The notes under the pieces are model-generated. The model made no database searches. It saw only the letters and a program-made list of their open reading frames with translations, and was not told where the DNA came from. From assembly GCA_032718475.1 (NCBI GenBank), contig JAUCBJ010000219.1:1-32662 (forward strand): a DNA stretch of 32,662 nt. The letters run 5' to 3'. This document shows, in pieces, positions 2,501-25,894 of the stretch (position 1 is its first letter; the number at the start of each line of letters is the position of its first letter). The position numbers and the translations under genes were made by a program. The stretch comes from Nemertoderma westbladi. Its lineage: Eukaryota > Animalia > Xenacoelomorpha.

Positions 2501-3891
2501 TTATTTTAAATAATCGAATTTCTGAATTTTAAGGGTTACTTGGTTACTTTAACTTACTTTATTACTGTTATTTAAGCAGTAGTCCAACTGATATTGAGAC
2601 CTAATTGTTATATGGCAGGCCTACTATTTATAAATCGTTTGAGTTGATTTATAATATATATATATACCCGTTTTAATGGGTTTTGTCAATGTTTGAAATA
2701 AATGTTATTATTTCTGGGGAGTAATCACTACGCAAAGCGGTGCGCTTTCAGTGAAGTGTTACTTATAGGACACTAAAACAAATAATTCTAATTTACCTAA
2801 GTTACTTAATACTACAAAGTACGTACAATTCGGGTGAGATTACAATCTCTAAATAAACACAAAAATTTACAAAAACACAAAATACGAAATTTTTTAGGGT
2901 ATTTTTACAAGAAGTCTACAAACCAGTCTAACAAAGGGTTAGAATCTGGTTATTACAACGGACAGGGTACTACGGTATTTGAAATAATAAGTAGTAGTAA
3001 GTACACTGCGTTGTCCAGATAGGAAAATACCACCGCCTGACGACCTATAGCCGTATCGCTATAGGTTCTACGTTATGTATCACGGAGTGTTCCTACCTAG
3101 AAGTTAATAGAGCTAATCGAACGTGCCTATCAACCACTTTACAACACAAATATAATGCCTACACTAATTACTTCGGAAAGTACTGTACACTAAACCCTAA
3201 ATTAGGTACGAGTACTTGTACAACATATAATCAGTAGTTAAATATACTTGAACAGTTAAAAGAACCACGGCATCTGCTGGAGTGACCGATGCACAAAATC
3301 ACCAGTCTTTACCTACGCCAAGCAGCCCGTGTAGTACCGGTGTTAATTTAACTATAGCGGTATGTATAACAAACACAATTACTGTAGGAACAAACTTGGG
3401 GAATGAATGTTGCGGATAATCGCATAAACTCTGAATAATAAATATTACGCTACGCGTACAAACTACTCAAACAAAATGCAGACCGAACACTGACAGACTA
3501 CTATCAAGCCTAAACAAACTACGGTATATGCAGACTCCGAAATAATTAGGTAGTATGCGTTCTAACCCAGTAGTACGACTTATTCTTTAGTTGGGGGTTT
3601 ACCTTACAGCATTCGCTGCCCCTACTTCCTAACCGTTCTTTATCGGACAGGTGATCTACACACACTGCAATCCGTTCAGACTTAACAGCAATCAGACAAC
3701 AGCTCAGCCTACAAATTGTCTGTACAATCTGATCAGGCTTACACGTCTTCTGTTCAATACTGGCCTACAAATAAATAAAACTGACAGAAATAGGCCTAAG
3801 TAAAATCCCAATAAAAACCAGGCGTCCCCGATTAATTATTAAGACCTACCGGCATATATAATCAAATCGAATAATACTGCTGTACTTATAC

Positions 3892-4007
3892 GGAAGTACC
3901 GGTTAGGACAGTTAGGCCTACGGACCTACAGAAGTACCGGTTCTGGCAGTTGGACCTACGGGCCTACGGCAGTACCGGTTCTGGCAGTTGGGCCTACTGA
4001 CCTACAG
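3892..4007. repeat. 38-bp tandem repeat, 3 copies
   Basis: AGTACCGGTT...CAGTT.G.CCTAC.G.CCTAC starts at 3895, 3933 and 3971. Confidence 0.85.
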
Positions 4008-5797
4008 ATGGACCGTTCAGGTTTACCGGTTGACCGGTACTTTCAACTTTATTGCTTACTGCAATAAAGAAGCTATATCCGTTATTGTTCGCGCTTTCAG
4101 ACCTATGGCAGTTTAACCCGCCAAATTAGGATGTCTTCTAGATAATAAATCACCTTTAGTCTATGACAAGTATTTAATTCACTACACTAGTCGAAACCAA
4201 TCTGTGCGCGATCATTCACCCGCTGGATATACCCGGGAGATTGAGTTCGACGGCTTAATTTTATTGCTATGTAAGCCTAATGTATTATTCGACTGACAGT
4301 ATTATATAATCTCTGACAATATTATTCACCTTCGGGAAATATTAACAGTTCCTTTAGGACGTGGCGCTCTATCTATACAAACAGAGTTATGACTTAAACT
4401 ACTCACAACGATATGGCTTAGTTACAATTCACATATATGGCGCATTCTTTAGGAAATGCTTCGTTATCAGTCTCACTCATACACAATGCTGCACAATACT
4501 GCACACTGATCTGCCGATCTTCACTGATTTTAGTCACATATAAAAGGAACACGGACCGAATCATGTAGGGTCTATCAAATAACATTAGATTCACTTCAAA
4601 CCACTCAACATAGGTCGCAATCATTTATCTGTAACCATTCTCTCTTACCTTCGGTATATCAAGAATATTGGGTTTTCGGGGTTATTTGTCGTTATTCCAA
4701 ATATAATAATTCATCAACCATATTATGAAGAACTGACAGTAAATAGCAGTATAACAATATAAAAGTATGCACAGTGTTACACAGTATGCAGTGTATGCAG
4801 TATGCAGATAACGGATATATGTCCTTATAATTAAGCCTACTAGTGTAGGACTAAAAACTGAAAACACGGAGGTGCCAAAAGCCGGTTCTTAGGCTCTGGG
4901 CAAAACATAACACTGAACTACTGAGTTTCTGTATACACCTCCAACACAGAGACAACAAACGCTCTGATTGGTCAACCTGAACAACGAGAGAACAAAGAAA
5001 CAAAGAAACGTCGACGTGGCAATATCAGCTGCTAGCCGTCGTCATGGTAGCGACACTGTTTTCAAGAGTATCGAGCTTTTACGTCACGGAATTACGGATT
5101 ATGTCCTCTAAAGTACAAATACAGAAGAAATAGCTTTTATGTCCGCTAAAACACCAGTACAGCAAGGACACGGTCTTTTTATGCCTGGTAAACCAACTAC
5201 AGAGTATTTTACGGGAAAAATAAGGAAAAATAACCGGACAATTCAGCAAAAGCTTTTACAGAATGATTAATTTAGTGCAGGGAGATGTCGCACCATTAGT
5301 CTGACACCGAGAGGGCACATAGAAACACCAGAAGATGCCTAAACATCACTAACTATAGGCCTGCCTACTAGACACTATTAACCGCACACTATAAAGGTAA
5401 ACAAAATCCTTATCGCATTTCCAGCTGCAGCGAGTGACAGTTCGCGGCAAACTACAGAGAGTTTCCAGATTACTAAGCATTTCTAAAGTATTCAATTGTA
5501 TCCTTTGGCGAAAAAATTTTGGTTGTTGCCAATTCAATTCTGTTCAATTATGTTCAATTGTCCCGTTCAACAACATTACATTACACTGGTACACATTTGA
5601 TAAAATGTGTTCACAATTGTACAAATCTACGTTTTCTGGTGGCCTGTACTGTAATTCCATCCAATTAATCCATCTAATTCCTGCAAAATAAACTAAATAA
5701 ATTTTAGTTTGAAAAGGTTTTCTTCCGTATATTTATTAAATACCAAACCTTATACTAACTACAGTATGTAGCACAAATACTGGATGTTCAATATTGA

Positions 5798-6113: not shown

Positions 6114-6969
6114 ATGGCGCCGATCCGGGAACTAAAAATGATCCCGGGTACCGAGGAGGTTGTCTTTGTGTCTCTCAACCTCCCCTGTATCATAAACTCA
6201 ACAACTCTCTACGAAAAGGAAGATCTACCGGGATCCGGAGGTTCTAACGGTTACGGGACAGTCGCGGTTTCTACGGACGGGAACCGCGTTGCCTCGGGAA
6301 CCTGGGCGGGGGGGTCGGTGACTGTCTGGGAGCGGGAAGCGACCGGTTGGAGGGTCGTAGTGGAGGTACCGTGGAGGGAGTTCGTGGTTGGTGGGGGGGA
6401 GGGTAGAGCGAGGTTGGGAATAGATATAAATCCCTCCAACCGGGACGTAATTGCAACTTGTGGGGACGACGGGAGGATTTCTATTATATCAATAGCTGGG
6501 GGGAAATATAAGGTTACGAACTGGGTGGGGCATTCTGGGGTGGTTAACTGTATTCGGTTCGACTCGAACGGGTCCCGGTTGGCCAGCTGTTCGGATGATG
6601 GAACAGTAACAGTTTGGGTGACCGGAACCCGGGAGATGTTGTTGTTGTACCAATACCGGGGGCACAGTGGGGGGGTCTGGAGTCTGGGTTGGGGTCCGGA
6701 TGGGGAGTCAGTGGTGTCGGTAGATGAGGTAGGAGGGATCCATCGCTTTGTTGTTGGTACAGGGGAGACCTTGTGGAGACAGGAAGCAACTCCTGAGGTC
6801 AATAGGATCGTATTGAGTCCGAAAGGATCCAGAATCGCTGCTGTTGGGGTGAACGGGTTGATTTATATTCTAAATTCTGTAACTGGGGAGATTATCAACC
6901 GGATTGAAGGAACAGGGAGCGGCATCGAAGCGGTGGATTTCTGTAAAGATGACCGGCATATTATTACAG
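6114..6969 (+). CDS. First coding exon of a WD40-Roc-COR-CARD (ROCO) gene: WD40 beta-propeller
   Basis: WD40 repeats include GHSGVVNCIRFDSNGSRLASCSDDGTVTVW, GHSGGVWSLGWGPDGESVVS, VNRIVLSPKGSRIAAVG and IEAVDFCKDDRHIITG. Acceptor TTTTATCTTTTAG ends at 6093. Donor CAG|GTAATT is at 6970, phase 1. Confidence 0.9.
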
Positions 6970-7304
6970 GTAATTAATTAATAGACCTCTTTTATTAAAA
7001 CACGTTAATTAATTAATTAGGCCTAGGGTCTAATTCAGTACCGTACCACTACGTACCATAGTAAGTAATAATCATTATAACACTTAAATGAATTAATTAC
7101 ATTAATTATTATTATTTAATTCAATTTTATTGAATTAATAATTTACTTACCGATATGATGCGGATTAACTGAACATTACCTTCACTGCCTCCTGCCAATA
7201 TTGGGTACCATGGGAACGAAATATAAATTAGTCTAATAGGGGTATCAGAACATAGACCATTACAACATAGTCCCTGTCCAGGTTGGAATTTATGTAGAGT
7301 TTGC

Positions 7305-8135
7305 TCAACATGTGTGGCGCGGATTAAGGATCCTGGCGCGTAGTGACAGGGGCGTGTGGCGCGCATTGAGGATCCTGGCGGTCCTGGCGCGAATATGGAT
7401 GTAGGGTTAGGGTAGGATGTAAGCGTAGCAGCGGTGCACTGGCAACACATCCCACTATACAGCTCTATTTGAAATTATTCCATAGGTTTAAAAAGATTGA
7501 AAAATTTCCGCTCGCTTTGCTCCTCGCGTTTATACTGTAAGCCTACTCTTAGCATAGCACTGTCTGCAGACTGCAGGTCTGGCTGTGGACAAACGGACAG
7601 ATTGAGCATGACCATTCTGCCATTAAAAACATGATTTGTTTCAAAAGTGTTTCAATTGTCAGTTTCTTGAAACCAATAAAACCATGATTCAGCAGAATTT
7701 CCGTGCTCGCTACGCTCGCAATTTAATAACATCTGTATTTGAAAACAGTCGGTTTGTCTACTCTAAATGGTGAAATGTTAAAATTTTCGCGTTCGCTACG
7801 CTCGCAACACGCAATTTCATCACATCTGCTTTTAAAAACAGTCAGTTGACGTTGACCTACTATTTACAACTACTACTACAGTACGGTACTGTCAGACTGT
7901 ATTTATGTTAACATTATTAGAAAATTTCCTTGCTCGCTACGCTCGCATTTTATTGTTAAAATACTGTAGGGCTACAGCATTATAAACTGATAAATTATTG
8001 CAATTCAGCAATTACTGCAAAATTTCATAGTCAACTGTTGGCTTGGCGCGCATTGGATATCATGGCTGGCGCGATTTTCGTTTAACCAGAACGCGTGTGG
8101 CGCGCTTTTTGTCAGTATTCCATATAGGGTCCCTG
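7305..8135. repeat. Probable non-autonomous interspersed repeat with internal AAATTT.C..GCTCGCTACGCTCGCA motifs
   Basis: Motif copies occur near 7501, 7696, 7780 and 7921. GTGTGGCGCG occurs at both ends (about 7312, 7354 and 8095). No clean TSD was found. Confidence 0.45.
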
Positions 8136-8299
8136 TAGTCGGATAGATTTAGGTGCGGTTTGGTTCCGGTAAATGTAACATTAAAATAAACTAATAAACC
8201 AGCAATTAGCTTAATAATAGTATGTATTCAGTTATCTGTTAGGTTGTTTGTTATTGGTTTGTATCAATGGCGTTTTAACCAACTGGTAGTTCTACTTAA

Positions 8300-9852
8300 C
8301 CCTATTAAACCCGGGGGGGGGGTCAATATGACCCCTCCCGTGGTTTTTTTATTATAAATCTGAAACAAACGCAGTTGGGAATCTGAAATTTTATGACTTT
8401 TCCTAAAAATCTATTGTCTTCCTAGTAGTGAAAACCGTTTTCAAAAATATTGGGTACTTTTCGAGTTATAGCACCATTTTTTAACCCTACTTTTGGCACT
8501 TTTTTTGAGACGTTTTTTGAAAATTACATTTCATTAAATATGAATTGTAACATCTCTATTTATTATTTACACCGGTTTTTTGGTGTTAGAAATTTGATGG
8601 AATTCATATAAATTGATTTAGAAATTTCAAACTTGTTTTTTTCGGTGGGTGCCAAATTTTGGTGCCAGCACCAAATTTTGAAATAAGTCAATTTTGTAAA
8701 TTGATCGTTTGAAACTTGTTTTTTACGCAATTGGGTTTTTTTGGGTTTCTAGATTCGATGAAATATATACGAGTTGCACCAAGCGTATCAAACTTGTATT
8801 TTTCGGTGCTGTGTGCAAATTTTGGTGCAAGCACGAAATTTTGAAAATCCATTCAATAGATAAAATTGCTTGTGACAACTTATTTCTTGAGTTTTAGAGG
8901 TTTATGGCTGTTCTGAATTCAATGGAAAATATAATTATCGAACTAGACATCTCAAACTTGTATTTTTCGGATGTGGGTGCAAAATGTGGTGCTAGCACCA
9001 AATTTTGAAAACCATCAAATATATCAATTGATTGTGTCACCTTGTTTCTTGCGTTATATGGGTTTGTGATGGTTCTGAATTCAATGGAATCAGTAAAAAT
9101 TTCATAAGTGTTCTCAAAATGGTATTTTTCGCCGGTGGGTGAAAATTGTTGTGCCAGCACCAAATTTTGGAAAATATGCAAATTGATAAGTAGATAGTAT
9201 CACCTTGTTTCTTGCGTTATACGGGTTTATGAGGGTCCTGAATCCGATGGAATCAATAAAAACAGCACTGGACATCGCAAACTTGTACTTTTTGGTGATG
9301 GGTACGAAATTTGGTGCTAGCACCAAAATTTGCCAAAAAACGCCGAAAAATACAAGTAGCAATGATCTGGCATATTAGAAATGTATTCCATTAGAATCAG
9401 CGCCCTCGAAAACCTGAAAATGTGAATTTATAGCATCGTATAAGTGAATTAAAAATTTTGTGTTCTAACTGAAAAGTGCTGGTTACTTGTTTTTTTCATT
9501 TTTTTCCTATGCAGAGAGGACTAAACAGCCATTTATAGTAATCATATCATTTTTTAATATTTTCCAATGTATTTTGCACCCCAGAAAACCTGTATTGAAA
9601 AATAATTAGCCGAAAATGTAACTTTCAAATTTGGTGAAAATTGTGCACTACTTGTAATTTTGGTGCTGCAATATAACCACCCCAGTACATTTTTTTCGAA
9701 ATTTTTTTTTTCGGTCGGATCCAGACAAGTGATACCTACGTACAAACAAAAAATCAGACGTTTTCGTAATTATTTGTAGATTTTAGAGGGGGGGGTCAAT
9801 ATGACCCCCTCCCGGTATTTGTACAACATTTTATAGCCCGGTACTAATAGGG
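8300..9852. mobile_element. Non-autonomous piggyBac-like DNA transposon (MITE-like, 1553 bp)
   Basis: TTAA target duplication at 8296-8299 and 9853-9856. Terminal inverted repeats are CCCTATTAAACCCGGG and CCCGGTACTAATAGGG (13/16 match). Subterminal palindromes GGGGTCAATATGACCCC lie near both ends. There is no transposase ORF. Confidence 0.85.
8625..9335. repeat. About 162-bp tandem repeat, about 5 copies, inside the piggyBac-like element
   Basis: CAAACTTGTATTTTTCGG...AAATTTTGGTGCTAGCACCAAATTTT recurs near 8628, 8789, 8953, 9115 and 9278. Confidence 0.8.
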
Positions 9853-10139
9853 TTAAATACAAACTATAATGGTGCCAATAGGCCTACCGGTACTGCAATG
9901 CAGTAAAGTAACTGTACAGAGAATACAACCGGTACTGTATTATAAAAACTTTCATTATTAGGTCTGCCATACAGTCTCATTACTTAGGCATACAACAAAG
10001 GCTTATTATAATATATACCACCTTGCTCGCCATAGATAGTTAGTTAGGTAGCGCCTGGATAGCTATATATTTCAAATTATTTCTAATTATGTCACAAATT
10101 AAATATCACAAATTCAATATCCAGTATGTTACAGGAAAA

Positions 10140-10830
10140 CGTAGAAAATCAAAATAATATCAAAATAATATTAATCAAAATCAAATCAAAATCATTTAAA
10201 CAATTCTAGTAATTCGTAAATATATGCACAGAGGGTATGAGAGTCACCTTTAAAAAGAGTATTCAAGCGCCCCGCAAAATCGAGAGTCTGGTATTTTAAA
10301 CATAAATCTTTTGAGAGTGGGCACACACATAAAACGTGCAACTCATCTTGTACAGAGGTGTTGTCACAGATACAAGTTCTGTCCAATCGTGGTATCCTGG
10401 ACCACCGGCCGGTTTCTATACGCAGTCTATGACTCATTAATCTGACTCGGGTAAAAGCAGCGCGGTGATATTCCGGAATATACGGTTTGGCAGATTTGTA
10501 TATCGGGTGTACAGACAAGTCGCTATTTAAAACAGAACGGTATGTAAAAAACTTTGTAGCGGATTCTGGTTTGTTTATAACACGGGATTTTATTATACTG
10601 GTAGTGAATAAATTGAACGAGGCTTTATACAACAAATTCTAACCCGGGCTATTTGCCGATTTGCAAAGTTGGAATGCCTGATTAATCGGTGTATCGGGAT
10701 CGCTATGAAGTATTTTCATGTAAAATTGCTTCCTACATTTAATTATACGTTCTAGAATGGTTGGTAGCTCTAATTCGATCAGACAGATGTCGGTAGGAGT
10801 TTGATATCTAACACCTGCTAATGTTTGTAA
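10140..10830 (-). mobile_element. 5'-truncated non-LTR retrotransposon 3' end (RTEX/L2-type ORF2 C-terminus), degenerate
   Basis: GVRYQTPTDICLIE...FTRVRLMSHRLRIETGRWSRIPRLDRTCICDNTSVQDELHVLCVCP gives a CCHC-like C-terminal motif. There is an in-frame stop at 10639-10641 and an (ATTTTG)n-like tail near 10140-10192. Confidence 0.8.
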
Positions 10831-11894
10831 AATGTCCACTTTTTGGAGGACGTTTTTGTTTTTAGTTGTAGTCCAATACAAAATGCCGGCTAATATTTTT
10901 TATTGTTTGTTCCAAATTCATTAACATACTAATCATAAATACGCTGCCTAAAACTGGTCTACTTGGGGTAAAAAGCTTCCAGTTTCAGGCATAATTAATA
11001 CACCTACGACTGCACCGGTACCAGATTTGCCTACATAATGTAGTACGCATATAGATTACATCAGTATGTATTATAATAAATGTTTACTAGTTGTGTGTGA
11101 CAGGTGTAATGTGTCTTATCGGTCTGGTCACCTAATGTTTTCTATTATTATTTGATCATAAATTCAAATTGTATTGGGTGGGGGGTAGGACCGGTTTTTT
11201 TTCAAATTGTTTTTAAACTGCATTAGTTTATTTTAAGCAATACACCCATATTTGTCACCCATATAAAAACATTACAATCTTCTGGTTTACGAATATGGCG
11301 ACGAAATGCTCGAGAAACTACTCAAACGATCACAATTTGAATAAAAGTGGATGGGAGTAGTGTGGATCAAATGTGTCTACGTCAGAATACTTCAATTTTA
11401 ACCGCCAAAGAAACGTATTGTGTTGGATCAAATGGGTGGATTGAAGTACAGACAATTTTTATTCGAACCATCCCAGCATATATAACATCTCCACCTTTTG
11501 GAAACAAACTATTTCATGCAAAAAATTAAAAAAAAAAACTAAAAAATGGGTCAATAGATGTAAAGTTTTCAATGATTACTGGCTACGGCTTGTTTAAACA
11601 TTGAATTAGCAGTAAATATCGCACATTATCCTGCCCAGCATCAGTGCAGTAAAGGTAGGTCTACTACACCAATGCCAGGGATACTCCATTCAATATATTA
11701 ATTATCTACGGTAGTTCTGTAGTTAATTAGTAATGCTGTAAGCGGTATACGGAAACGTAGGATAATATGATAGAGCTAGACCCAGCTTCTACAACCAATA
11801 TCACGGCCTTCCCCCATCTGGGCACCTTTCATTCACCTACAAATTGTAATATTACCAGCTTCCCTGCAAGATACCACTGTCCATGTCCAATAAG

Positions 11895-12079
11895 GGAGCT
11901 CCCTATTCAAATACATCCCTTCCTTCTCATTGGAGCTTCCTATGCAAATACATCCCTTCCTTCTCATTGGAGCTTCCTATTCAAATACATCCCTTCCTTC
12001 TCATTGGAGCTTCCTATGCAAATACATCCCTTCCTTCTCATTGGAGCTTCCTATGCAAACACATCCATTCCTTCTCATT
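11895..12079. repeat. 37-bp minisatellite, 5 copies
   Basis: GGAGCTTCCTATGCAAATACATCCCTTCCTTCTCATT starts at 11895, 11932, 11969, 12006 and 12043. Confidence 0.95.
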
Positions 12080-12204
12080 GTATTAACCTTTACAGTTAAT
12101 AACAAGGAATATTTCTGTATCCAATAACTATATGAGATAACAGTGACAGTAAACGTTTATTGATCAGTTTGTAACAAGTCAATATCAATATTAAATCGCA
12201 TCAG

Positions 12205-13480
12205 GGATCCCATTGAGAGACTGCTCCGTGGAAATCAGAATGGGTTCCGTAAAGGTCGTGGGACCATGGAGCCCATTTTGGCACTTAGAAGGAAAATTGA
12301 AGAGTTATCACAAAAGAAAGACAGGCATCTGGCTGTTATCTTTGTTGACTTCTTCAAGGCCTTTGATTCAGTCTCTCGCTCACGTACAGTATGTTCAGCA
12401 TACTTTCATTATATGGGATTCCTGATGAAATTATTGCAGCAATCAGATCAGTATACGATGGTTCGACAACATTTGTGACACAGAACCATTTGAAGTGTTA
12501 TGGGGCGTCCTCCAAGGAGACACACTTGCACCATTCTTGTTCATTATTGTGGTTGACTATGTTCTACGCATGTCCTTAGATCATTATAATGATGATGGGG
12601 TGATGATAACTCCACCTACTGGCTCCAGAAGTTGAGGAAATCCTGCCAAGTACCTAACTGATCTAGACTTTGCTGATGACTTAGGAGTACTCTCAGAATC
12701 ACCAGAGGGAGCCCAACGGCTCTTCAGCTCATTAGAACATGCTGCTTCTAGTGTTGGTCTTTTTATTAACTCCAGAAAGACCAAAATTTTGACAGTTAAC
12801 TTTGAAAGTGATAATTGAAGTCAGTCTCTGATCGGATGAGCATAAGCTCAAAAGATGGTATGCTTGAGCATGTGGATGACTTCTGTTACCTGGGATCATG
12901 GATCCGGAAGTCAGATGAGGACCTTCGAATACGTAAGGGAAAGGCATGGGCAGCCTTGAATAGGCTTTCCAGGATTTGGAAGTCGCCGAATATTAATTGC
13001 AAACTTAAGGTCCGGTTATTTAGAGCAGCAGTAGTTCCAGTACTCCTATATGGGAGTCCATGCTGGGCTCTAACTGCTGAGGACACCAAATCTCTGGACG
13101 GCACATTCACAAGAATGCTACGCCGGGTTCATTGTGTCAAGTTCAATGCACACATCTCCAACCAGACACTATATAACATTGTAGGTGTCTCATTGGTTCC
13201 CCCAAGCTTGACACTAGAACAAAATCGCCTCCGCTTTGCAGGACATTGCTTTCGTCGTGAGGACCAGCCAGTGCATAATCTTGTACTTTGGCAGCCTCAT
13301 GGAGTGAATAAGCATGATGGACAGCCCATGACTTTCTTGAGATGCATCTTAAAGGACACTGGCCTTGAAGATGCGGATGATCTAGCAAATGTCGTGGGTG
13401 ATAAGGGAGTTGTGGCGGTGCAATTTTGTTGATAAGCCGGCACAGCATTCTTAAAAATGCAGCTGCAATGCAGCATGCCG
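12205..13480 (+). mobile_element. RTE-clade LINE reverse transcriptase fragment (frameshifted)
   Basis: RT motifs across frames: NQNGFRKGRGT, VIFVDFFKAFDSV, GVLQGDTLAPFLF, DLDFADD, VDDFCYLGSWI, LLYGSPCW, RLRFAGHCFR. Confidence 0.92.
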
Positions 13481-15100
13481 ATCCTAGTAGTAGTAATATC
13501 AATTATGTTTTACATGTGTTTAACGTAATCTTTGCACAGGAAAGACAGCTTCTAAATAGGTGATAATTAAGGGTCAACTTCACATCAACCTCAGATACCA
13601 GGTTTAAAAGGGCCAGTTTTGGATGTTTTAAACAGTCAGTAACAACAGGCCTAGTAGATGGCAGCCTCGGCAGCTAATTTTGGCTCTGCTTCTTGGTATC
13701 GGACCTAAACTACACCATTACTCTGATACCATCAGGGGAGGGGACCTAGTGGTGGATGTGTAGGTAAGGCTCCCGCTGAGAACTGAGCTTTGGCCAACCA
13801 GCCCTGGAGCGCTAGCGCACCCTGCCCGCTCCGCTGGCTATTCAGTCCGTCCCAGGATCGATTGTTTAGGTATGAGGACAAAGTAGCAGCATCTTCCTGG
13901 GTTTTGTCTCAGGTCAGATTATGGTAGAGCTTGCACTCTTTGCCCGTAAACTTAGTGGAGCGACCAGCGACCTCGGTTAATCCTCTAAGTCATAGGACAA
14001 ATTAGCAGCTAACCATCTGCATCCAATCGGTCCCACCCCCATTTGGACACAGAAGGTAACCTAGTGTTTTGCACTATTGCCAAGTTTCCAATAGCGTGAA
14101 GCCGCACCAAGTTTATTACGATTTTTATCAGTCTTTTCCGACTTTTTTCCACATTTAGTCTTTATGACTAACTATGACCTTTATCAGACGCTTTTTGTAT
14201 TACATTCTTCACAGTATTTTAGCATCAATAAACGACTAAAATATTGTATTTTATGTACTATTTTTCGGTTATAATTTTTTTAGATTGTATTATTTTTCGA
14301 GGCTATACTTTGGATCCTAATGGACGCAAAGCACCCCTCACCCTGTATTTTCTTTTTCCCTCTTCTCAGAGATTTTTCAATGGTGTTACATTACACTATT
14401 TTTATACCAGAAGCAAGCAATATAGCATCTGGAGAGAACAGAAATCGCTGAGTTTTAGTGCTATCTGGAAAGGGTTGTGGATGTCCGTAAATAACAAGTC
14501 ATTGAAGGACCGTGTATTACTGCGAGCTATTTTCAAGTCAGTCTTGCTACCGAGAAACCAATTCAACTTTTATGATTACACTTTATATTTGCCAATTACC
14601 ATTATTTACATTTCATTATTTACATTCAAATTTTAAGCCCACCACCTGTTAAAAAAAGTTTGTTTCACAATCAAGTTTCAAATCGAGTCAACTTAAACTT
14701 TATAAAAAAACAATTTTAATTGGTAGTTCTTCTGGTCCCATATATTTGACCGAGTCTACCTGCGTTCGAATTTATATGTGTGCAATCCAATCTGATCAAG
14801 GATTGTTTTTATAGCTTTGGAGACTGTTGGTACAAATCTTATAAAACTTTAAGTATCATCTGTAAGATTGGGTGCTTCTTTTAGTTCTGGGTGTTGAGGT
14901 TTTTATCAACCATATCTAGCGGGTTGTTGTTTATATTAACATAACAGTATATCAGTGTCTCCGGCTCAGAAATAGTTCAAGCAACTTATCTTTATAATTT
15001 TAACCATCCTATTGTCCCGTTTATCATTGCTATAATACGTAATATTGGATGTCAACTCAGTGGAAAGACAGCTTAACAATAATTATTATACTTTATACAG

Positions 15101-18100
15101 GAGATGATGGCGGCACAATTACAGTAATTGATACGTTCCGTGAAGGTCAAACTGAAACAAAGAAAAGTATCAAACAGGTGGAAAGTATATTGGAGAAAGC
15201 TGAAGAATTAAAGGAAATTGTTGAGTATATCGGATGGGTTGGTCCCATAAATAAACCACTCCAGGGTAAGATAACTGATATAATTATATCTACTGTTGAT
15301 GTTCTTTCAGATAAGGAAAAACAACTTTACTTTAGACTGGATGCAGATATTTCTGAGTTAACAACACAGAATCTGGTTAGTATTTGGGGTTTAGATGAAG
15401 TTTCAACAATAGAAATCGTTAAAAAATTCAGGGACTTGGGACTTCTGTCTACAACTGAATTAAATTCACTGAAAGTTCCAAAACTTTTAATTAATTATAT
15501 AAAAGAACAAAAACTGCCAATAGAGATACTGGCGAGAGGCCCAGAAGCATTGGCTGCTTATAAAGCAGCTCTTTCTAAAGGGACTACATGGATACTGAAA
15601 ACCCGGTTAATGTTAGTGGGACAAGAGAGGGCTGGTAAAACTAGTTTGAAGAAGTCCCTTATTGGTCAACCGTTTGATATTAATGAACAAATAACAGATG
15701 GTATTGACTCATCTGCTAACTGTATTATAAATACCGAACAAAACACAGATTGGACCAACTTACGAGATAAAGATAAAGAAAACTTGGAGAAAGATGTCAA
15801 TGACTTTGTTACTAAACAAATAGCAAAAACTGTTCTAGAAAGTAAACAAGTTGCAGATAATAAAAGTGTGACTCCCATAGTTTCAACCTCTTCATCAGCA
15901 GCTAATGCTAAACCTACAGAGATTCCTATTACAGTTGCAAGTGGAAGTGGTAATAAAGTTCCAACCGTTAGTTTGTGGAGGAGGTTAGTTTCCAAATTTA
16001 CACGCAATAAAGAACAAATCAGTATTGAAGGTGAAGTCAGGGTCACAGAGGGAAGCATTAGTAGACATAAAGGAGGTACAGGATATATTCAATCCAAACA
16101 TGATTCTTCTGAAACACAAATCCTCAGCAAACATATCTAAAGGAGTAGAAGATATACTCACATCTGGTAAACCCCAAGATATTCTGGCTAAATTTAATGA
16201 GGAAGACAGTCGCTTTTCTCTACAGATAGTCGATTTTGGTGGCCAATGTATTTATTACACAACCCATCAGATATTTTTGAGTAGACGAGCTATTTATATA
16301 ATTGTATTTAATCTCTTGGAAAATCTTGAAAAAACTGCTGATATTATTTTCAGATCTGATGAAAACAATATTAATGAGTTTGTTTTCGGTGAGATTAAGA
16401 ATATTGAGTTTATTGAATTTTGGTTAAAAAATATTTATTCATTTGGTACAAAACTAGAAGTAAATTCTTGTCCACCTGTTTTTGTAGTTGGAACTCATAA
16501 AGGCAGCTTACATGCTGATCCTGATACTCAATCTGTAATAGCAAGTAAAATATTTGAAAAGATTAAGACCCATTTGGGTAAATCTTCATATACAGATAAT
16601 CTAATTAAAGATTACATTGCTATAGAGAATAATAGAGAAATTATATATGGTGGAGAGAAAGGACTTGAAAATTTACAGGCAAATATTGTCAACGAAATGG
16701 CAAATTTTAAGGAGGAAATACCTTTGCAATATCTAAAATTTGACCAACTTGTGTCTCAATTAATCACGGATGGTAAAGTTTATATTGACATTGACTTGCT
16801 AGAGATTAAATTAAAGGATATTGATGTAGAAATGGATAACATTGGTTTGAAAACCATGTTAGAATTTTACCACGATTTGGGTACAATAATTTACTTTGAT
16901 GATGAATCTCTAAGGGATACTGTTATACTGAGCCCAGAATGGTTGAGTGGAATGTTTACCAAAATAATAACTGTAAAAGATAAAATAAAGAAACAACATT
17001 TTACTTTCTGGAAGGACCTGGATAACAATGGTATATTACATGAAGAACTCCTTGATTATCTGTGGGAAGGCGTTCTTGATAAAAAACAATTTATGTTGAA
17101 TATTCTAGAACGTTTTGATTTATTATGTGAACGAGTTTTACCAAGAACCGAAAGAACATTGCAAGATGATGTAAAGTTGGCTTATTATGTACCTTGCCGC
17201 CTTAAATCTGTTAGATATACTCCATTCACACCAAGACAATGTAAAGTTGAATTTTATATTACATTCAAGAGTTTCTTACCGCAAGGATTGTACTACCGTT
17301 TAATTAAGAGAACTATTGATTTGTCATACATTGTAGGTAATAGAGTAATTCAACCTAAACTTTACCACAGAGTTGCTCAAATATTTTTAGATTTTAATCA
17401 TCAGGTAATTTTGGAAAGATCTTCTATTTCATTAAATTGGATTAAAGTTCATGTAGTTAGATCTGAGGTGTTGAGTTCGGGCGATGAACAAACTGAAAGT
17501 AAACTTGCACCAGATCCGGATATTGTTAATAAAGTAAATCATTTCATTAATACATCATTGAAGGAAATTATCACCCAAATGAGATTTAAAAATATTTCAT
17601 TTGATTTCGAAATAAAATGTGAATGTAATGCTAAATGCGATCAACACAGATTACTTGACTGCAATGAAGAAGGGTGTTTTCACTTTGTTAAACTGGCTGA
17701 TATTTTATCAAATAATTTTGTTCAATGTAAATTTAATAACTCTGTTAGAAGTCGATTTATTAGTGGAAAATTCCCTGTTGTTGGGAGATTTAGCTCACAT
17801 TGGTTAAACATTACAACTAACCGAGATGACCTTATTGATAGACTGGAAATCTCAGAGTTACTTGTATACTTAGCAAGTAAGGGGGCTATATCAAAGGAAG
17901 TTTTAGCTGTTATTGAATCTAAGTCGAATTTGTTGAGTAAGAATAAGATTTTGTTGGAGTCAATAAAATGGGGATCAGAAAATAATTACAAAGTATTTAT
18001 TGAAGCATTATATGTAACCAATCAACCGCTTTTGGTTGAAATTTTGCATGAAAAAATCAAAATGGAAGACCAAATGTTCCCTGATATTCTAACAAAGTAT

Positions 18101-18478
18101 AAATATATGTTAATGAAAAATTTAGAACAAACTAAATTTGTTGCACAGCTTCTTGTTAGCCGAAACGTTATAAGTAAATCTATCATAGAAATAATCGAAT
18201 GTAAAGAATCAATAGATAGTAAGAATGTTGTACTTATAAACGCAGTAATGAAAAGATCTTACAAGGATTTTCTTACTTTTTGTAAATGTCTTCGTCTCAC
18301 CAACCAACATCATTTAGCTGATACTCTAGAGGAAGCAACCAAAGGTTATGATGCTGATATTGTAGACATTACCAATCAAGCTGATGAAGTTGCTGATATA
18401 GATAATACTAATCAAGGTGGAGAGGCCGCTGGGGTTATAGACGTTACCAATCAACCGGTGGAGAGGCTGCCGTTATAG
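15101..18478 (+). CDS. Main exon(s) of the ROCO gene: end of WD40, Apaf-1-like winged helix, Roc GTPase, COR, Cys-rich module, 2 CARDs; +1 frame break at about 15990-16140
   Basis: LPIEILARGPEALAAYKAAL leader; P-loop GQERAGKTS (15619-15645); TDGID switch I; DFGGQ (16232); YYTTHQIFLSRRAIYIIVFNL; VGTHKG; COR motifs LEFYHDLGTIIYF, VILSPEWL, ERFDLL, YYVPCRL. CARD-like helical domains lie near 17786-18052 and 18077-18334. ORFs 15049-16140 and 16025-18478 overlap in different frames. Confidence 0.85.
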
Positions 18479-21156
18479 ACATTGCCAATCAATGTAATGT
18501 AGCTGTTGTTATAGATGTTACCAATCAACAGGTGGAGAGTCTGCTGTTATAGACATTGCCAATCAAGGTAGAGGGGGTGCTGTTATAGACATTACCAATG
18601 AAGGTGAAGAGGCTGCTGTTATAGACGTTACCAATCAAGGTAGAGAGACTGCTGTTATAAACGTTACCAATCAACTGGTGGAGAGGCTGCTGTTATAGAC
18701 ATTGCCAATCAATGTAATGTAGCTGTTGTTATAGATGTTACCAATCAACCGGTGGAGAGACTGCTGTTATAGATAGACATTGCCAATTAATGTAATGTAG
18801 CTGTTGTTATAGATGTTACCAATCAACCGGTGGAGAGGCTGCTGGGGTTATAGACGTTACCAATCAACCGGTGGAGAGGCTGCTGTTATAAACGTTACCA
18901 ATCAAGGTAGGGGGGGTGCTGTTATAGACATTACCAATGAAGGTGGAGAGGCTGCTGTTATAGACGTTACCAATCAAGGATGAGAGGCTGCTGTTATAAA
19001 CGTTACCAATCAAGGTAGAGGGGCTGCTGTTATAGACATTACCAATCAAGGTAGAGGGGCTGCTGTTATAGACATTACCACTGAAGGTGGAGAGGCTGCT
19101 GTTATAGACATTACCAATCAAGGTAGAGGGGCTGCTGTTATAGACATTACCAATCAAGGTAGAGAGGGTGCTGTAATAGACGATACCAATCAAGGTAGAG
19201 GGGCTGCTTTTATAGACATTACCAATGAAGGTGGAGAGGCTGCTGTTATAGACATTACCAATGAAGGTTGAGAGGCTGCAGTTATATACATTACCAATCA
19301 AGGTAGAGAGGCTGCTGTAATAGACGATACCAATCAAGGTAGAGGGGCTGCTGTTATAGACATTACCAATGAAGGTGGAGAGGCTGCTGTTATAAACATT
19401 ACCAATCAAGGTAGAGAGGCTGCAGTTATATACATTACCAATGAAGGTGGAGAGGCTGCTGTTATAGGCGTTACCAATCAAGGTAGAGGGGCTGCTGTAA
19501 TAGACGATACCAACCAAGATAGAGGGGCTGCTGTTATAGACATTACCAATGAAGGTAGAGAGGCTGCTGTTATAGACGTTACCAATCAAGGTTGAGAGGC
19601 TGCTGTAATAGACGATACCAATCAAGGTAGAGGGGCTGCTGTTATAGACATTACCAATGAAGGTGGAGAGGCTGCTGTTATAAACATTACCAATCAAGGT
19701 AGAGAGGCTGCAGTTATATACATTACCAATGAAGGTGGAGAGGCTGCTGTTATAGGCGTTACCAATCAAGGTTGAAAGGCTGCTGTTATAGACGTTACCA
19801 TGAAGGTGGAGAGGCTGCTGTTATAAACATTACCAAACAAGGTAGAGAGGCTGCAGTTATAGACATTACCAATCAAGGTAGAGAGGCTGCTGTAATAGAC
19901 GATACCAATCAATGTAGAGAGGCTGCTGTTATAGACGTTACCAATCAAGCTAGAGAGTCTGCTGTTATAGACATTACCACTGAAGGTGGAGAGGCTGCTG
20001 TTATAGACATTACCAATCAAGGTAGAGAGGGTGCTGTAATAGACGATACCAATCAAGGTAGAGGGGCTGCTGTTATAGACGTTACCAATCAAGCTAGAGA
20101 GTCTGCTGTTATAGACATTACCAATCAAGGTAGAGAGGCTGCTGTAATAGACGACACCAATCAAGGTGGAGAGGCTGCTGTAATAGACGACACCAATCAA
20201 GGTGGAGAGGCTGCTGTAATAGACGATACCAATCAAGGTAGAGGGGCTGCTGTTATAGACGTTACCAATCAAGCTAGAGAGTCTGCTGTTATAGACATTA
20301 CCAATCAAGGTTGAGAGGTTGCTGTTATAGACATTACCAATCAAGGTAGAGAGGCTGCTGTAATAGACGATACCAATCAATGTAGAGAGGCTGCTGTTAT
20401 AGACGTTACCAATCAAGCTAGAGAGTCTGCTGTTATAGACATTACCACTGAAGGTGGAGAGGCTGCTGTTATAGACATTACCAATCAAGGTAGAGAGGGT
20501 GCTGTAATAGACGATACCAATCAAGGTAGAGGGGCTGCTGTTATAGACGTTACCAATCAAGCTAGAGAGTCTGCTGTTATAGACATTACCAATCAAGGTT
20601 GAGAGGTTGCTGTTATAGACATTACCAATCAAGGTAGAGAGGCTGCTGTAATAGACGATACCAATCAATGTAGAGAGGCTGCTGTTATAGACGTTACCAA
20701 TCAAGCTAGAGAGTCTGCTGTTATAGACATTACCACTGAAGGTGGAGAGGCTGCTGTTATAGACATTACCAATCAAGGTAGAGAGGGTGCTGTAATAGAC
20801 GATACCAATCAAGGTGGCTGCTGTTATAGACGTTACCAATCAAGGTAGAGATGCTGCTGTAATAGACGTTACCAATCAAGCTAGAGAGTCTGCTGTTATA
20901 GACATTACCAATCAAGGTAGAGAGGCTGCTGTAATAGACGACACCAATCAAGGTGGAGAGGCTGCTGTTATAGACATTACCAATCAAGGTAGAGAGTCTG
21001 CTGTTATAGACATTACCACTGAAGGTGGAGAGGCTGCTGTTATAGACATTACCAATCAAGGTAGAGAGGGTGCTGTAATAGACGATACCAATCAAGGTGG
21101 CTGCTGTTATAGACGTTACCAATCAAGGTAGAGAGGCTGCTGTTATTGACATTACC
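18338..21156 (+). repeat. 36-bp coding-derived minisatellite (about 78 units; peptide QGREAAVIDITN)
   Basis: The unit is CAAGGTAGAGAGGCTGCTGTTATAGACATTACCAAT. It begins in frame within the ROCO ORF and contains +2 insertions, a recurrent 5-bp deletion and TGA variants. Confidence 0.95.
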
Positions 21157-21969
21157 TGTGTGTTATCTTAATAATTCATTGCAGGAATTCCTTAAACAAA
21201 TTCGAATAAAAAACATTTCGTTTAGTTTTCATTTAAAATGTCAATGTAATTCAAAATGCGAACAGCACAATGAAATTAACTGTAGAGAAGAAATTTGTTT
21301 CCATTTTATTAAAATCGATGAAAATATTTCAGATAATAAAGTCAAATGTAAGTTTCATAAACATATGGAAAGCAACTTAATAAGAGAAAAATATACAGGT
21401 GATTTAAGTTCACATTGGAAGAAAATAACGTCTAAGGAGAATGAACTTCTAGATAAACTAGAAATATTAGAACTTATAATTTTCTTAGAAGCTAAGCGAA
21501 CTTTGTCTCGGGATGTTTTATCTATAATTAACTCGAAACCAAATGTATTCAGTAAAATAAAGACTTTATTGGAGGCAATAAAATGGGGTACAGAAAATAA
21601 TTACGGAATATTTATTGAAGGATTAAAGGAAACATATCAAACTCATATAGTAAATATTTTAGAGGATAAAACAACAGATGATGATAAAAAGTTTCCGTTG
21701 ATACTAACTAAATATAAGTTTGTTTTAGTTAATAGAATCGAACCAAACTTGGTAATAAAATTACTTTGTAGGAAACAAGTGTTTGGGGATTCTATAGCTG
21801 AATCAATCAATAGTAAAGAATCCACAGTGGCAAAGAATAATGAACTGGTCAACGCGATAATTAGAAGGTCATACCACGATTTTCTTACATTCTGTCAATT
21901 GACACAAATCAGGGTCAAATAGCTGATATCCTGACTACAGCTGTACATAATTTAGATGATTTAGTCTAA
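21155..21969 (+). pseudogene. Second, diverged Cys-module-CARD-CARD block (internal duplication of about 17535-18335), frameshifted near 21900
   Basis: YLNNSLQEFLKQIRIKNISFSFHLKCQCNSKCEQH aligns with FINTSLKEIITQMRFKNISFDFEIKCECNAKCDQH. Other shared motifs are SSHW, IKWG.ENNY, ILTKYK and RSY.DFLTFC. After 21900 homology continues in another frame as TNQGQIADILTTAVHNLDDLV* (TAA 21967-21969), matching TNQHHLADTLEEA. Confidence 0.8.
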
Positions 21970-22739: not shown

Positions 22740-25700
22740 CATAAACTCTATCCACCAACCCATCGGAACCATAAACTCTATCCACCAACCCATCGGAACC
22801 ATAAACTGTATCCACCAACCCATCGGAACCATAAACTCTATCCACCAACCCATCGGAACTATAAACTCTATCCACCAACCCATCGGAACCATAAACTCTA
22901 TCCACCAACCCATCGGAACCATAACTCTATCCACCAACCCATCGGAACCATAAACTCTATCCACCAACCCATCGGAACCATAAACTCTATCCACCAACCC
23001 ATCGTAACCATAAACTCTATCCACCAACCCATCGGATCCATAAACTCTATCCACCAACCCATCGTAACCATAAACTCTATCCACCAACCCATCGGAACCA
23101 TAAACTCTATCCACCAACCCATCGGAACCATAATCTGTATCCACCAACCCATCGGAACCATAAACTCTATCCACCAACCCATCGGAACCATAAACTCTAT
23201 CCACCAACCCATCGTAACCATAAACTCTATCCACCAACCCAACGGAACCATAAACTCTATTCACCAACCCATCGGAACCATAAACTCTATCCACCAACCC
23301 ATTGTAACCATAAACTCTATCCACCAACCCATCGGAACCATAAACTCTATCCACCAACCCATCGGAACCATAAACTCTATCCACCAACCCATCGGAACCA
23401 TAAACTCTATCCACCAACCCATCGGATCCATAAACTCTATCCACCAACCCATCGTAACCATAAACTCTATCCACCAACCCAACGGAACCATAAACTCTAT
23501 TCACCAACCCATCGGAACCATAAACTCTATCCACCAACCCATTGTAACCATAAACTCTATCCACCAATCCATCGGAACCATAAACTCTATCCACCAACCC
23601 ATCGGAACCATAAACTCTATCCACCAACCCATCGGAACCATAAACTCTATCCACCAACCCATCGGATCCATAAACTCTATCCACCAACCCATCGTAACCA
23701 TAAACTCTATCCACCAACCCATCGGAACCATAAACTCTATCCACCAACCCATCGGAACCATATACTCTATCCAGCAACCCATCGTAACCATAAACTCTAT
23801 CCACCAACCCATCGGAACCATAAACTCTATCCACCAACCCATCGGAACCATAAACTCTATCCACCAACCCATCGAAACCATAAACTCTATCCACCAACCC
23901 ATCGGAACCATAAACTCTATAACTCTATCAACCAAACCATCAGAACCATAAAGTCTATTCACCAACCCATCGGAACCATAAACTCTATCCACCAACCCAT
24001 CGGAACCATAAACTCTATCCACCAACCCATCGGAACCCTAAACTCTATCCAGTAACCCATCGGAACCATAAACTCTATCAACCAACCCATCAGAACCATA
24101 AAGTCTATTCACCAACCCATCGGAACCATAAACTCTATCCAGTAACCCCTCGGAACCATAAACTCTATCCAGTAACCCATCGGAACCCTAAACTCTATCC
24201 AGTAACCCATCGGAACCATAAACTCTATCCACCTACCCATCGGAACTCTAAACTCTATCCAGTAACCCATCGGAACCATAAACTCTATCAACCAACCCAT
24301 CAGAACCATAAACTCTATCCACCAATCCATCGGAACCATAAACTCTATCCACTAACCCATCGGAACCATAAACTCTATCCACCAACCCATCGGAACCCTA
24401 AACTCTATCCAGTAACCCATCGGAACCATAAACTCTATCAACCAACCCATCAGAACCATAAAGTCTTTTCACCATCCCATCGGAACCATAAAGTCTATTC
24501 ACCAACCCACCGGAACCCTAAACTCTATCCACCAACCCATCAGAACCAACAATTATATCCACCAACCCATCAGAACCATAATCTCTAACCACCAACCCAT
24601 CGGAACCATAAACTCTATCCAGTAACCCATCGGAACCATAAACTCTATCCAGTAACCCATCGGAACCCTAAACTCTATCCAGTAACCCATCGGAACCCTA
24701 AACTCTATTCACCACCAACCCATCAGAACCATAAACTCTACCCAGTAACCCATCGAAACCCTAAACTCTATCCACCAACCCATCGGAACCCTAATTCGAT
24801 CCAGTAACCCGTCGGACTCATAAACTCTGTCCAGTAACCCACCGGAACCATAAACTCTATCCACCAACCCATCGGAACCATAAACTCTATCCACCAACCC
24901 ATCGGAACCATAACTTCTATCCACCAACCCATCGGACTCATACACTCTATCCACCAACCCATCGGAACCATAACCTCTACCCACCAACCCATCGGACTCA
25001 TAAACTCTGTCCACTAATCCATCTGAACCATAAACTCTATCCACCAACCCATCGGAACCATAAACTATATCCACCAAACCATCGGACTCATAAACTCTGT
25101 CCAGTAATCTATCGGAACCATAAACTCTATCCATCAGAACATCGGAACCATAACTTCTTTCCACCAACCAATCGGACTCATAAACTCTATTCACCAACCC
25201 ATCGGAACCATAACCTCTAACCACCAACCCATCGATCTCATAAACTCTGTCCACCAACCCATCGGAACCATAAACTCTATCCACCAACCCATCGGAACCA
25301 TAACTTCTATCCACCAACCCATCGGACTCATACACTCTATCCACCAACCCATCGGAACCATAACCTCTACCCACCAACCCATCGGACTCATAAACTCTGT
25401 CCACTAATCCATCTGAACCATAAACTCTATCCACCAACCCATCGGAACCATAAACTATATCCACCAAACCATCGGACTCATAAACTCTGTCCAGTAATCT
25501 ATCGGAACCATAAACTCTATCCATCAGAACATCGGAACCATAACTTCTTTCCACCAACCAATCGGACTCATAAACTCTATTCACCAACCCATCGGAACCA
25601 TAACCTCTAACCACCAACCCATCGATCTCATAAACTCTGTCCACCAACCCATCGGACTCATAAACTCTATCCACCAACCCATCGGAACCATATCCTCTAT

Positions 25701-25894
25701 CCACCCACCCATCGGAACCATAACCTCTATCCACACCCATCGGAACCATAACTCATATCCACCAACCCATCGGACTCATAAACTATATCCACCAACCCAT
25801 CGGAACCATAAACTCTATCCACCAACCCATCGGAACCATAAACCCTATCCACCAACCCATCGGAACCATAAACTCTGTCCACTAAACCATCGGA
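22740..25894. repeat. 30-bp minisatellite, about 105 copies
   Basis: The unit is CATAAACTCTATCCACCAACCCATCGGAAC. The left part is homogeneous and the right part more diverged, with 240-bp and 390-bp higher-order duplications. Confidence 0.97.

What the first reader, a model, noticed from the sequence alone, without database searches (positions are those of the whole stretch)
6114..21969. Hidden WD40-winged helix-Roc-COR-(CARD)2-repeat-(CARD)2 gene: an apoptosome-like layout built on a ROCO GTPase
Seen: two ORFs 8 kb apart join through a phase-1 GT-AG intron that completes a WD40 repeat, followed by Roc G-motifs, COR and up to four CARD-like domains. Known: Apaf-1 is CARD-NB-ARC-WD40. LRRK-type ROCO proteins carry WD40 C-terminal to a kinase, and DAPK1 has a C-terminal death domain. 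Inference: here a sensor-switch-effector plan is reversed and uses a Roc-COR GTPase in place of NB-ARC, with no kinase or LRR. It is a candidate innate-immune or cell-death receptor whose architecture I do not recognise from characterised proteins.
Basis: partly seen in the sequence, partly recalled or inferred. Interest (0 to 1): 0.9.

Follow-up and report, generated by a model that had tools for sequence, protein, structure and literature searches.

The report
WD40-tipped Roco GTPase with tandem CARDs
These exons likely splice into one animal protein that joins a WD40 propeller, an LRRK2-type GTP switch and two cell-death adaptor (CARD) domains; it is predicted to act as an immune or cell-death receptor, is a new mix of parts in a family already known for mixing them, and may be decaying.

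Summary
Mostly real, less strange than claimed. The 8-kb phase-1 intron is well supported: acceptor 15100 is the best of 750 downstream AGs at completing WD40 repeat six. WD40, COR-A and two CARDs pass Pfam cut-offs; Roc is split but all G motifs are present. The 1378-aa model is open. Three claims weaken. The winged helix is only hinted (shuffle p 0.006-0.02). The frame break in Roc may be a 97-nt intron with a poor acceptor or an indel. The second CARD pair lies beyond the stop, behind an untranslatable 2.8-kb minisatellite; it is an old, once-constrained duplicate, now frameshifted. The order is the ordinary Roco one (sensor-Roc-COR-effector), not a reversed apoptosome. Its Roc-COR groups with invertebrate Neuralized-Roc-COR-Death-TIR proteins, in a family that swaps both ends freely. 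Roc-COR with CARDs (Trichoplax) and propeller-Roc (bacteria) are in print. I did not find the WD40-Roc-COR-CARD-CARD combination in any search, and the scan's earlier notes hold only its halves, on other genomes. No RNA evidence. Verdict: new variant of a known kind, possibly a pseudogene.

The parts
6114..6969 (+). Exon with WD40 repeats 1-5 and the first half of repeat 6; first 45 residues predicted disordered; GC3 0.57. A phase-1 acceptor-like site at 6093 may mark an upstream exon.
   Evidence: Pfam WD40 E 3e-23; AF2 pLDDT 82, propeller strands from residue 47 on; Foldseek WD40 propellers, TM about 0.7
6970..15100 (+). 8131-nt phase-1 GT-AG intron, holding non-LTR reverse-transcriptase relics and repeats; no frame-keeping internal exon found at the thresholds used
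15101..15140 (+). Second half of WD40 repeat 6
   Evidence: best of 750 acceptors with a WD40 profile built here
15160..15510 (+). Helical linker of about 116 aa; possible relic of a STAND HD1/winged-helix unit (unproven)
   Evidence: no Pfam hit; no homologue; AF2 pLDDT 34; weak matches to STAND HD1-WHD, 21/1000, 6/1000, 31/2000 and 43/2000 shuffles reach the score
15514..15759 (+). Roc N-terminal half: family entry motif, G1 (15619-15642), G2 (15694-15705)
16031..16127 (+). Frame break inside the low-complexity Roc insert: 97-nt intron candidate or a one-base-phase indel somewhere in 15989-16137
   Evidence: best of 192 frame-restoring GT-AG pairs but with a weak acceptor; composition between coding and non-coding
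16128..16720 (+). Roc C-terminal half: G3 (16232), G4 (16490, no Asp, as in the nearest clade), G5 (16622)
16769..17790 (+). COR-A (16769-17125), COR-B region and Cys-rich tail
   Evidence: COR-A E 2e-12 above cut-off; COR-B Pfam only E 0.2 but covered by 34-37% identity to Neuralized-Roc-COR proteins
17807..18049 (+). CARD1
   Evidence: Pfam CARD 35.4 bits, cut-off 23.9
18089..18334 (+). CARD2
   Evidence: Pfam CARD 31.9 bits
18363..21156 (+). 36-bp minisatellite, about 77 copies; main ORF stops at 18476-18478; not translatable end to end
   Evidence: 8 of 75 units not a multiple of three, 7 of 65 36-nt units with a stop; longest open run 193 of 932 codons
21164..21969 (+). Old duplicate of last COR helix + Cys-rich tail + CARD3 (21416-21667) + CARD4; 7-nt deletion near 21899; stops at 21920 (in frame) and 21967 (shifted frame)
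   Evidence: 48% aa identity over 248 residues; dN/dS 0.40, CI 0.28-0.57, 245 open codons

Best explanation
This is an animal Roco GTPase gene whose exons likely splice into WD40 propeller - helical linker - Roc - COR - CARD - CARD (about 1380-1410 aa), predicted to work as a cytosolic sensor-switch-adaptor for immune or cell-death signalling, though it may now be broken. Shown: the domains, the G motifs, the quality of the exon junction and the duplicate behind the stop. Inferred mechanism: a ligand on the propeller shifts the nucleotide-dependent monomer-dimer cycle of Roc-COR (described for CtRoco, PMC6337361); the dimer brings two tandem CARD pairs together; the clustered CARDs recruit a CARD-bearing caspase or adaptor. 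Inferred history: a fast-evolving offshoot of the Neuralized-Roc-COR-Death-TIR group changed both ends; its COR tail and CARD pair were duplicated; the linker between the copies grew into a minisatellite and cut the second pair off, which then began to decay.
For: Junction best of 750; both splice sites near the 99th percentile; open 1378-aa model. WD40, COR-A, CARD1 and CARD2 above Pfam cut-off. All five G motifs match the nearest clade, including the Asp-less G4. Trees place the Roc-COR with Neuralized-Roc-COR-Death-TIR proteins, SH-aLRT 99 and 95. Relatives carry many different N-termini and mostly Death, TIR or other signalling C-termini. Copy 2 evolved under constraint (dN/dS 0.40; simulated neutral decay left the frame open in 11 and 0 of 2000 runs), and its shifted-frame stop aligns with a sense codon in copy 1. 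CpG is depleted in the Roc-COR body (12 of 28 and 17 of 33 expected) but not in exon 1, as expected for a methylated gene body (recalled pattern).
Against: No transcript evidence. The Roc frame break may be an inactivating indel: its acceptor is weak and the 97 nt are purine-rich like exon. GC3 differs sharply between the WD40 exon (0.57) and the rest (0.24). Only six WD repeats are seen, so the propeller may be incomplete. No relative with this architecture was found, so conservation does not support function. The branch is long, so the tree position is unsure. No ligand, partner or activity was tested.
Confidence: 0.62

Rival explanations
1. Same architecture, but the copy seen here is a pseudogene or null allele: the Roc break is a real indel that ends translation at residue 631, before G3, COR and the CARDs.
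For: Acceptor 16127 only 59th percentile. Purine share 0.61 is reached by 1.6% of intron windows and 14% of coding windows. Codon score of the 97 nt (1.2) lies between coding (5.9 +- 4.9) and non-coding (-6.0 +- 4.2; 8 of 228 reach it). Other decay nearby: broken array, 7-nt deletion in CARD4. The G1-G3 distance of 610 nt fits the intron-less relatives (462-633 nt, 10 loci).
Against: Donor 16031 is strong (98th percentile) and the pair is the best of 192. The spliced distance, 513 nt, fits the same range. 26 of 36 related loci have G3 outside the G1 frame, so introns in this insert are usual. The rest of the gene, about 4 kb of coding sequence, has no other break. A single assembly error would look the same.
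Confidence: 0.4
2. The minisatellite is an intron (18458-21184), so a four-CARD protein of 1617 aa is still made, alone or as an alternative to the two-CARD form.
For: 18458-21184 is the best of 55 in-frame joins, donor 91st and acceptor 93rd percentile; the model is open; copy 2 stayed open for 245 codons under constraint; six poly(A) hexamer-free kilobases follow the first stop, the first hexamer lying at 21205.
Against: One such pair is expected by chance among so many sites. A stronger donor of the wrong phase lies upstream (18417) and 46 similar donors fill the array. Homology to copy 1 runs about 20 nt upstream of the acceptor, as if that stretch had been coding. CARD4 has lost its last helix by frameshift.
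Confidence: 0.15
3. The WD40 exon and the Roc gene are separate units; the junction is a coincidence.
For: 8 kb apart; very different GC3 and Gly/Arg codon use; no WD40 among 220 Roc relatives and no Roc among 120 WD40 hits.
Against: The WD40 frame ends at a strong donor in mid-repeat and has nowhere else to finish the repeat; the Roc frame opens at a strong acceptor with the missing half, 5.8 sd above the mean of 750 alternatives.
Confidence: 0.1
4. The protein is real but serves as a scaffold in trafficking or development, like LRRK or Tornado-type Roco proteins, with the CARDs as plain interaction modules.
For: WD repeats are only 21% alike on average, unlike the near-identical repeats of some fast-diversifying sensors (recalled); characterised Roco proteins have varied roles (PMC6337361 passages).
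Against: CARD is a death-fold signalling adaptor; relatives carry TIR, Death, DED, NACHT, HEPN, Macro, GT4; long branch and signs of turnover fit immune genes.
Confidence: 0.13

Closest known systems
Invertebrate Neuralized-Roc-COR-Death-TIR proteins ('neuralized PATS1' of Saccoglossus, P0002; Ptychodera P0001; Branchiostoma P0073; Aplysia MyD88-like ROCO in PMC9334734)
   Same: Closest Roc-COR (34-37% identity; same clade); same G4/G5 signature, long Roc insert and Cys-rich COR tail; death-fold domain right after COR
   Different: WD40 plus helical linker instead of Neuralized; CARD-CARD instead of Death-TIR; long branch; frame break
Trichoplax adhaerens ROCO repertoire (Civiero et al. 2014, PMC4104024)
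   Same: Kinase-less Roc-COR surrounded by CARD, death, TPR, LRR and AAA domains
   Different: WD40 does not occur in the paper's main text (0 hits); the figure itself was not seen
AP-GTPase (Roc)-COR counter-invader proteins (Kaur et al. 2021, PMC8195603)
   Same: Repeat sensor - AP-GTPase - COR - variable effector; supplements list bacterial BetaPropeller+AP-GTPase (42 occurrences) and a coral protein ending APGTPase+COR+Death+Death
   Different: Those propeller forms are bacterial; 'COR+CARD' has 0 occurrences in the files searched (one file was cut when stored)
Apaf-1 / Dark / CED-4 apoptosome scaffolds (CARD-NB-ARC-WD40; PMC11747288)
   Same: WD40 and CARD in one chain; possible HD1/winged-helix relic
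   Different: No NB-ARC ATPase; GTPase switch known for dimers, not rings; opposite order; six WD repeats; two CARDs
DAPK1, LRRK1/2, MFHAS1 (PMC6337361)
   Same: Roc-COR core; DAPK1 has a C-terminal death-fold and no LRR
   Different: No kinase, no LRR; WD40 is N-terminal here, C-terminal in LRRK

Membership tests
Roco proteins | Roc GTPase domain with G1-G3 and variant G4-G5 | tested here: met
   All five motifs located and matching the nearest clade; each Pfam half is below cut-off (23.9 and 25.7 vs 27 bits; 30 bits for the isolated 3' half) because the domain is split
Roco proteins | COR directly after Roc | tested here: met
   COR-A 47.6 bits vs cut-off 35.3; COR-B region aligned to relatives
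Roco proteins | Roc and COR translated as one intact chain | tested here: inconclusive
   Frame break between G2 and G3: intron or indel
Roco proteins | GTP binding, hydrolysis and nucleotide-dependent dimer | not testable with these tools
   Needs biochemistry
Neuralized-Roc-COR-Death-TIR orthologue group | Roc-COR in that clade | tested here: inconclusive
   Groups with it (SH-aLRT 99, 95) on a long branch; nested versus sister not resolved, p-AU 0.277
Neuralized-Roc-COR-Death-TIR orthologue group | N-terminal Neuralized, C-terminal Death and TIR | tested here: not met
   No such Pfam hit in the ORFs; tblastn of these proteins hits only Roc-COR and the duplicated tail
Apaf-1-like apoptosome scaffolds | NB-ARC (STAND) ATPase | tested here: not met
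   No Pfam NB-ARC; tblastn with NB-ARC/NACHT-bearing proteins finds none in the window
Apaf-1-like apoptosome scaffolds | HD1-winged helix unit | tested here: inconclusive
   Four weak, non-independent matches, p 0.006-0.02; 28 of 1537 natural decoys score as high; fold failed
Apaf-1-like apoptosome scaffolds | Order CARD - NB-ARC - WD40 | tested here: not met
   Order is WD40 - Roc - COR - CARD
Apaf-1-like apoptosome scaffolds | Caspase recruitment by CARD on an oligomeric ring | not testable with these tools
   No caspase of this organism was at hand (no genome)
LRRK / DAPK kinases | Kinase domain | tested here: not met
   No kinase hit in the ORFs or by tblastn with kinase-bearing proteins
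CARD family | Pfam CARD above gathering score | tested here: met
   CARD1 and CARD2 met; CARD3 borderline; CARD4 no hit

The most novel reading that the evidence does not exclude
A live animal receptor in which a Roc-COR GTPase took the place of the STAND ATPase of an NLR/Apaf-1-like ancestor (leaving a winged-helix relic), a WD40 propeller gates its dimer cycle, and splicing across a minisatellite switches the output between two and four CARDs, tuning how easily a caspase or adaptor filament is seeded.
Probability: 0.1. Interest if true: 0.78.

Novelty: new variant of a known kind. Interest (0 to 1): 0.42.

Why it matters
Invertebrate Roco proteins with death-fold outputs are numerous and untested. 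A WD40-Roc-COR-CARD-CARD protein has a simple readout (CARD clustering), so it could test directly whether the Roc-COR monomer-dimer cycle can do the job that STAND ATPases do in NLRs and the apoptosome. It would also be an animal parallel, reached independently by inference, of the bacterial propeller-Roc-COR-effector proteins. The locus also records how such receptors gain and lose effector copies. Its value drops if this copy is a pseudogene, and it is a single unreplicated case.

Tried and rejected
No whole genome is held, so paralogues, caspases and synteny were not examined. No RNA holder was listed; that is no evidence either way. The linker gave no PDB sequence hit, no Pfam hit, no homologue among 314 candidates and an unusable single-sequence fold; a protein-language-model look-up gave no answer. 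The CARD pair's only PDB hit was a designed protein at E 0.047. A codon model could not place the Roc frame switch. My impression that frame-B residues inside the proposed intron match the relatives was not borne out (693 of 1000 shuffles score as high). 'Both frames open for 97 nt' does not separate intron from indel (0.016-0.041 in non-coding, 0.023 in coding). The missing G4 Asp is not decay: 8 of 10 nearest relatives also lack it. Sequencing error as the cause of the array's breaks was set aside because the same variants recur (6, 6 and 2 copies). Simple phase-1 exon shuffling at the 8-kb intron was rejected as the fusion point, since the intron lies inside a WD repeat. No seventh WD repeat or upstream coding exon was found in six frames. 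A complex prediction of the propeller with the start of exon 2 was not obtained. The careful tree was not finished; both trees are quick trees.
Full report
1. What is in the sequence. The window is AT-rich eukaryotic DNA with transposon relics and satellites. Four open frames matter: 6114-6968 (WD40), 15103-16137 (linker and first half of Roc), 15989-18475 (second half of Roc, COR, two CARDs) and 21113-21919 (COR tail, two more CARD-like units). The organism is inferred to be an invertebrate animal from its best protein matches.

2. The 8-kb intron. The donor at 6970 and acceptor at 15100 score at the 99.3 and 99.0 percentile of all GT and AG sites of the window under an approximate matrix from recalled frequencies. 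I built a WD40 profile from 1403 repeats of the 120 listed WD40 hits (of 177 found) and scored the exon-1 tail joined to every downstream AG that gave no early stop. Acceptor 15100 came first of 750 (16.3 bits; next 13.0; mean 6.8, sd 1.6; unspliced 8.1). This is the strongest result. AlphaFold with a 24-row alignment gave pLDDT 82, with propeller strands from residue 47 and the first 45 residues unfolded; Foldseek returned WD40 propellers. Six repeats are seen, against seven in the bacterial rows. A phase-1 acceptor-like site at 6093 (96th percentile) could bring an upstream exon, but no seventh repeat was found in six frames. Against the join: GC3 is 0.57 in exon 1 and 0.24 downstream. CpG is undepleted in exon 1 (52 of 55 expected) and depleted in the Roc exons (12 of 28, 17 of 33), which fits an unmethylated 5' end and a methylated body (recalled pattern), so the contrast need not mean two genes.

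3. The 'winged helix'. No Pfam, PDB or database homologue was found and the fold failed (pLDDT 34). Profiles of HD1-winged-helix units from STAND proteins matched in a consistent register but weakly: 21 of 1000 and 6 of 1000 shuffles reached the score; a merged profile gave 43 of 2000 and 28 of 1537 natural decoys; P0188, a relative with an AAA-type NTPase followed by such a unit directly before Roc, gave 31 of 2000. These tests are not independent. I put a winged-helix relic at about even odds.

4. Roc-COR and its break. G1-G5 are present and match the nearest clade, whose G4 mostly lacks the Asp too (8 of 10 rows). The frame shifts between G2 and G3. Removing 16031-16127 gives 1378 aa with no stop; unspliced, translation stops at residue 632. 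The pair is the best of 192 frame-restoring GT-AG pairs, with a strong donor (98th percentile) but a weak acceptor (59th). Composition leans mildly to exon; homology and spacing do not decide. In 80 related loci kept from 150 in metagenome contigs, G3 was found in 36; it lay in the G1 frame in 10 and outside it in 26, so both intron-less and interrupted forms exist. My estimate: intron 0.4, real indel 0.4-0.45, assembly error 0.15-0.2.

5. The 3' end. CARD1 and CARD2 pass the Pfam cut-off. The frame runs a few units into a 36-bp array and stops at 18476. Of 75 units, 8 have lengths not divisible by three and 7 of the 65 regular units hold a stop; the same variants recur. The array cannot be read through. 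Behind it lies a copy of the last COR helix, Cys-rich tail and CARD pair, 48% identical, dN/dS 0.40 (CI 0.28-0.57), open for 245 codons, which simulated neutral change rarely allows (11 and 0 of 2000). So it was translated for most of its history. It now has a 7-nt deletion in CARD4. Its shifted-frame stop aligns with a sense codon in copy 1, and the array unit resembles the start of the last CARD helix (19 of 36 bases at 18299 and 21904; 17 of 29785 windows reach 19). The simplest history (inference) is an internal duplication giving four CARDs, then growth of the linker into a minisatellite. Splicing 18458-21184 would restore a 1617-aa form, but sites of that strength are expected by chance.

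6. Relatives. The best matches are Neuralized-Roc-COR-Death-TIR proteins of hemichordates, crinoid, bivalve and centipede. Quick trees of the G3-COR core put the window with them: 11 of 50 rows, SH-aLRT 99 (P0006, P0139, P0209 and L010 dropped for lack of a G3 match), and 9 of 22 rows, 95, after leaving out long branches. The branch is long and nested versus sister is unresolved (p-AU 0.277). I scanned 49 relatives (48 chosen for length from the 150 listed, plus P0007): N-termini include Neuralized, DED, Macro, TAZ, HEPN, OTU, SH3, zinc fingers, NACHT, NB-ARC-like, ankyrin, FN3, ETS, GT4 and kinase; 13 carry Death, 3 carry CARD (all N-terminal), none WD40. Eleven long metagenome frames added TPR, LRR and GT4 forms. 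No WD40 was found in 220 Roc hits, no Roc in 120 WD40 hits, and no WD40, linker or CARD match in 80 loci; these loci average under 5 kb, so a distant WD40 exon would mostly be missed. In 35 of the 47 loci where the entry motif was found (33 had no match) an acceptor lies just before Roc, all 35 in phase 1: a ready dock for swapping N-termini. The window gene lacks an intron there.

7. Mechanism. Shown: parts and order. From the literature: CtRoco is mainly monomeric with GTP and dimeric without nucleotide, and this is relayed to the sensor domain (PMC6337361, passages); AP-GTPase-COR proteins join a repeat sensor to a variable effector (PMC8195603, section 15 read whole). Inferred: the propeller binds a ligand or holds Roc shut; the dimer clusters four CARDs; these recruit a caspase or adaptor, as tandem CARDs do in RIG-I and NOD2 (recalled). 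Confidence 0.62 for this design; about 0.55 that this copy still makes it.

8. Comparison and novelty. It is a Roco protein by domain content; it is not an Apaf-1, LRRK or DAPK member. Roc-COR with CARD and death domains is described for Trichoplax (PMC4104024, passages and legend, figure not seen). N-terminal WD40 is named among Roco repeats in general (PMC11378527, passages). Roc-COR with TIR or Death is reported in Aplysia (PMC9334734, passages) and sea anemones (PMC5094078, passages). Supplements of PMC8195603 list bacterial propeller+AP-GTPase and a coral COR+Death+Death protein, and no 'COR+CARD' (search hits only; one file cut when stored). Novel Apaf-1 domain mixes are known in lancelets (PMC11747288, passages). 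Six paper searches (listings only apart from the papers named) showed no WD40-Roc-COR-CARD protein; subscription papers and most supplements were not covered. Earlier scan notes describe WD40-Roc-COR with other effectors and Roc-COR-CARD with other sensors on other genomes, none with all four, and nothing like this sequence or from this genome.

9. Verdict. Observation partly confirmed; interpretation partly supported. New variant of a known kind; interest 0.42.

Noticed in passing
window 3-2144 (-): 714-aa open frame running off the window with DUF1759, by recall the gag region of a BEL/Pao LTR retrotransposon; a 38-bp repeat at 3889-4015 may belong to its 5' region
   Followed up: partly
window 12164-13432 (+) and 30094-31144 (+): Broken non-LTR reverse-transcriptase relics (RVT_1 E 5e-6, DUF6451); the two share a near-identical peptide stretch by eye; the first lies in the long intron
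   Followed up: partly
window 22740-25894: Second large minisatellite, 30-bp unit, about 105 copies, with long stop-free frames
   Followed up: no
window 10195-10638 (-): 148-aa frame that by eye resembles the C-terminal end of a non-LTR retrotransposon ORF2; no Pfam hit
   Followed up: partly
window 8619-9332 and 7500-7950: 163-bp repeat (4.4 copies) and a cluster of GCTCGCTACGCTCGC-like motifs in the intron, probably DNA-transposon or MITE relics
   Followed up: no
L001-L080, Roc entry: 35 of 47 scorable loci have an acceptor 2-14 nt before the Roc entry motif, all phase 1: a family-wide exon-shuffling dock that may explain the variety of N-termini
   Followed up: partly
L002:227-4813, L022:75-4841: Intron-less TPR-Roc-COR-GT4 and LRR-Roc-COR-GT4 frames; L006 and L075 are kinase-Roc-COR-TIR types
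   Followed up: no
P0075 (Sinanodonta), P0188, P0148, P0121, P0196: P0075 has beta-rich repeats before each Roc start, possibly another propeller-Roc fusion (by eye, no Pfam propeller hit); the other four join a STAND-type NTPase to Roc
   Followed up: partly
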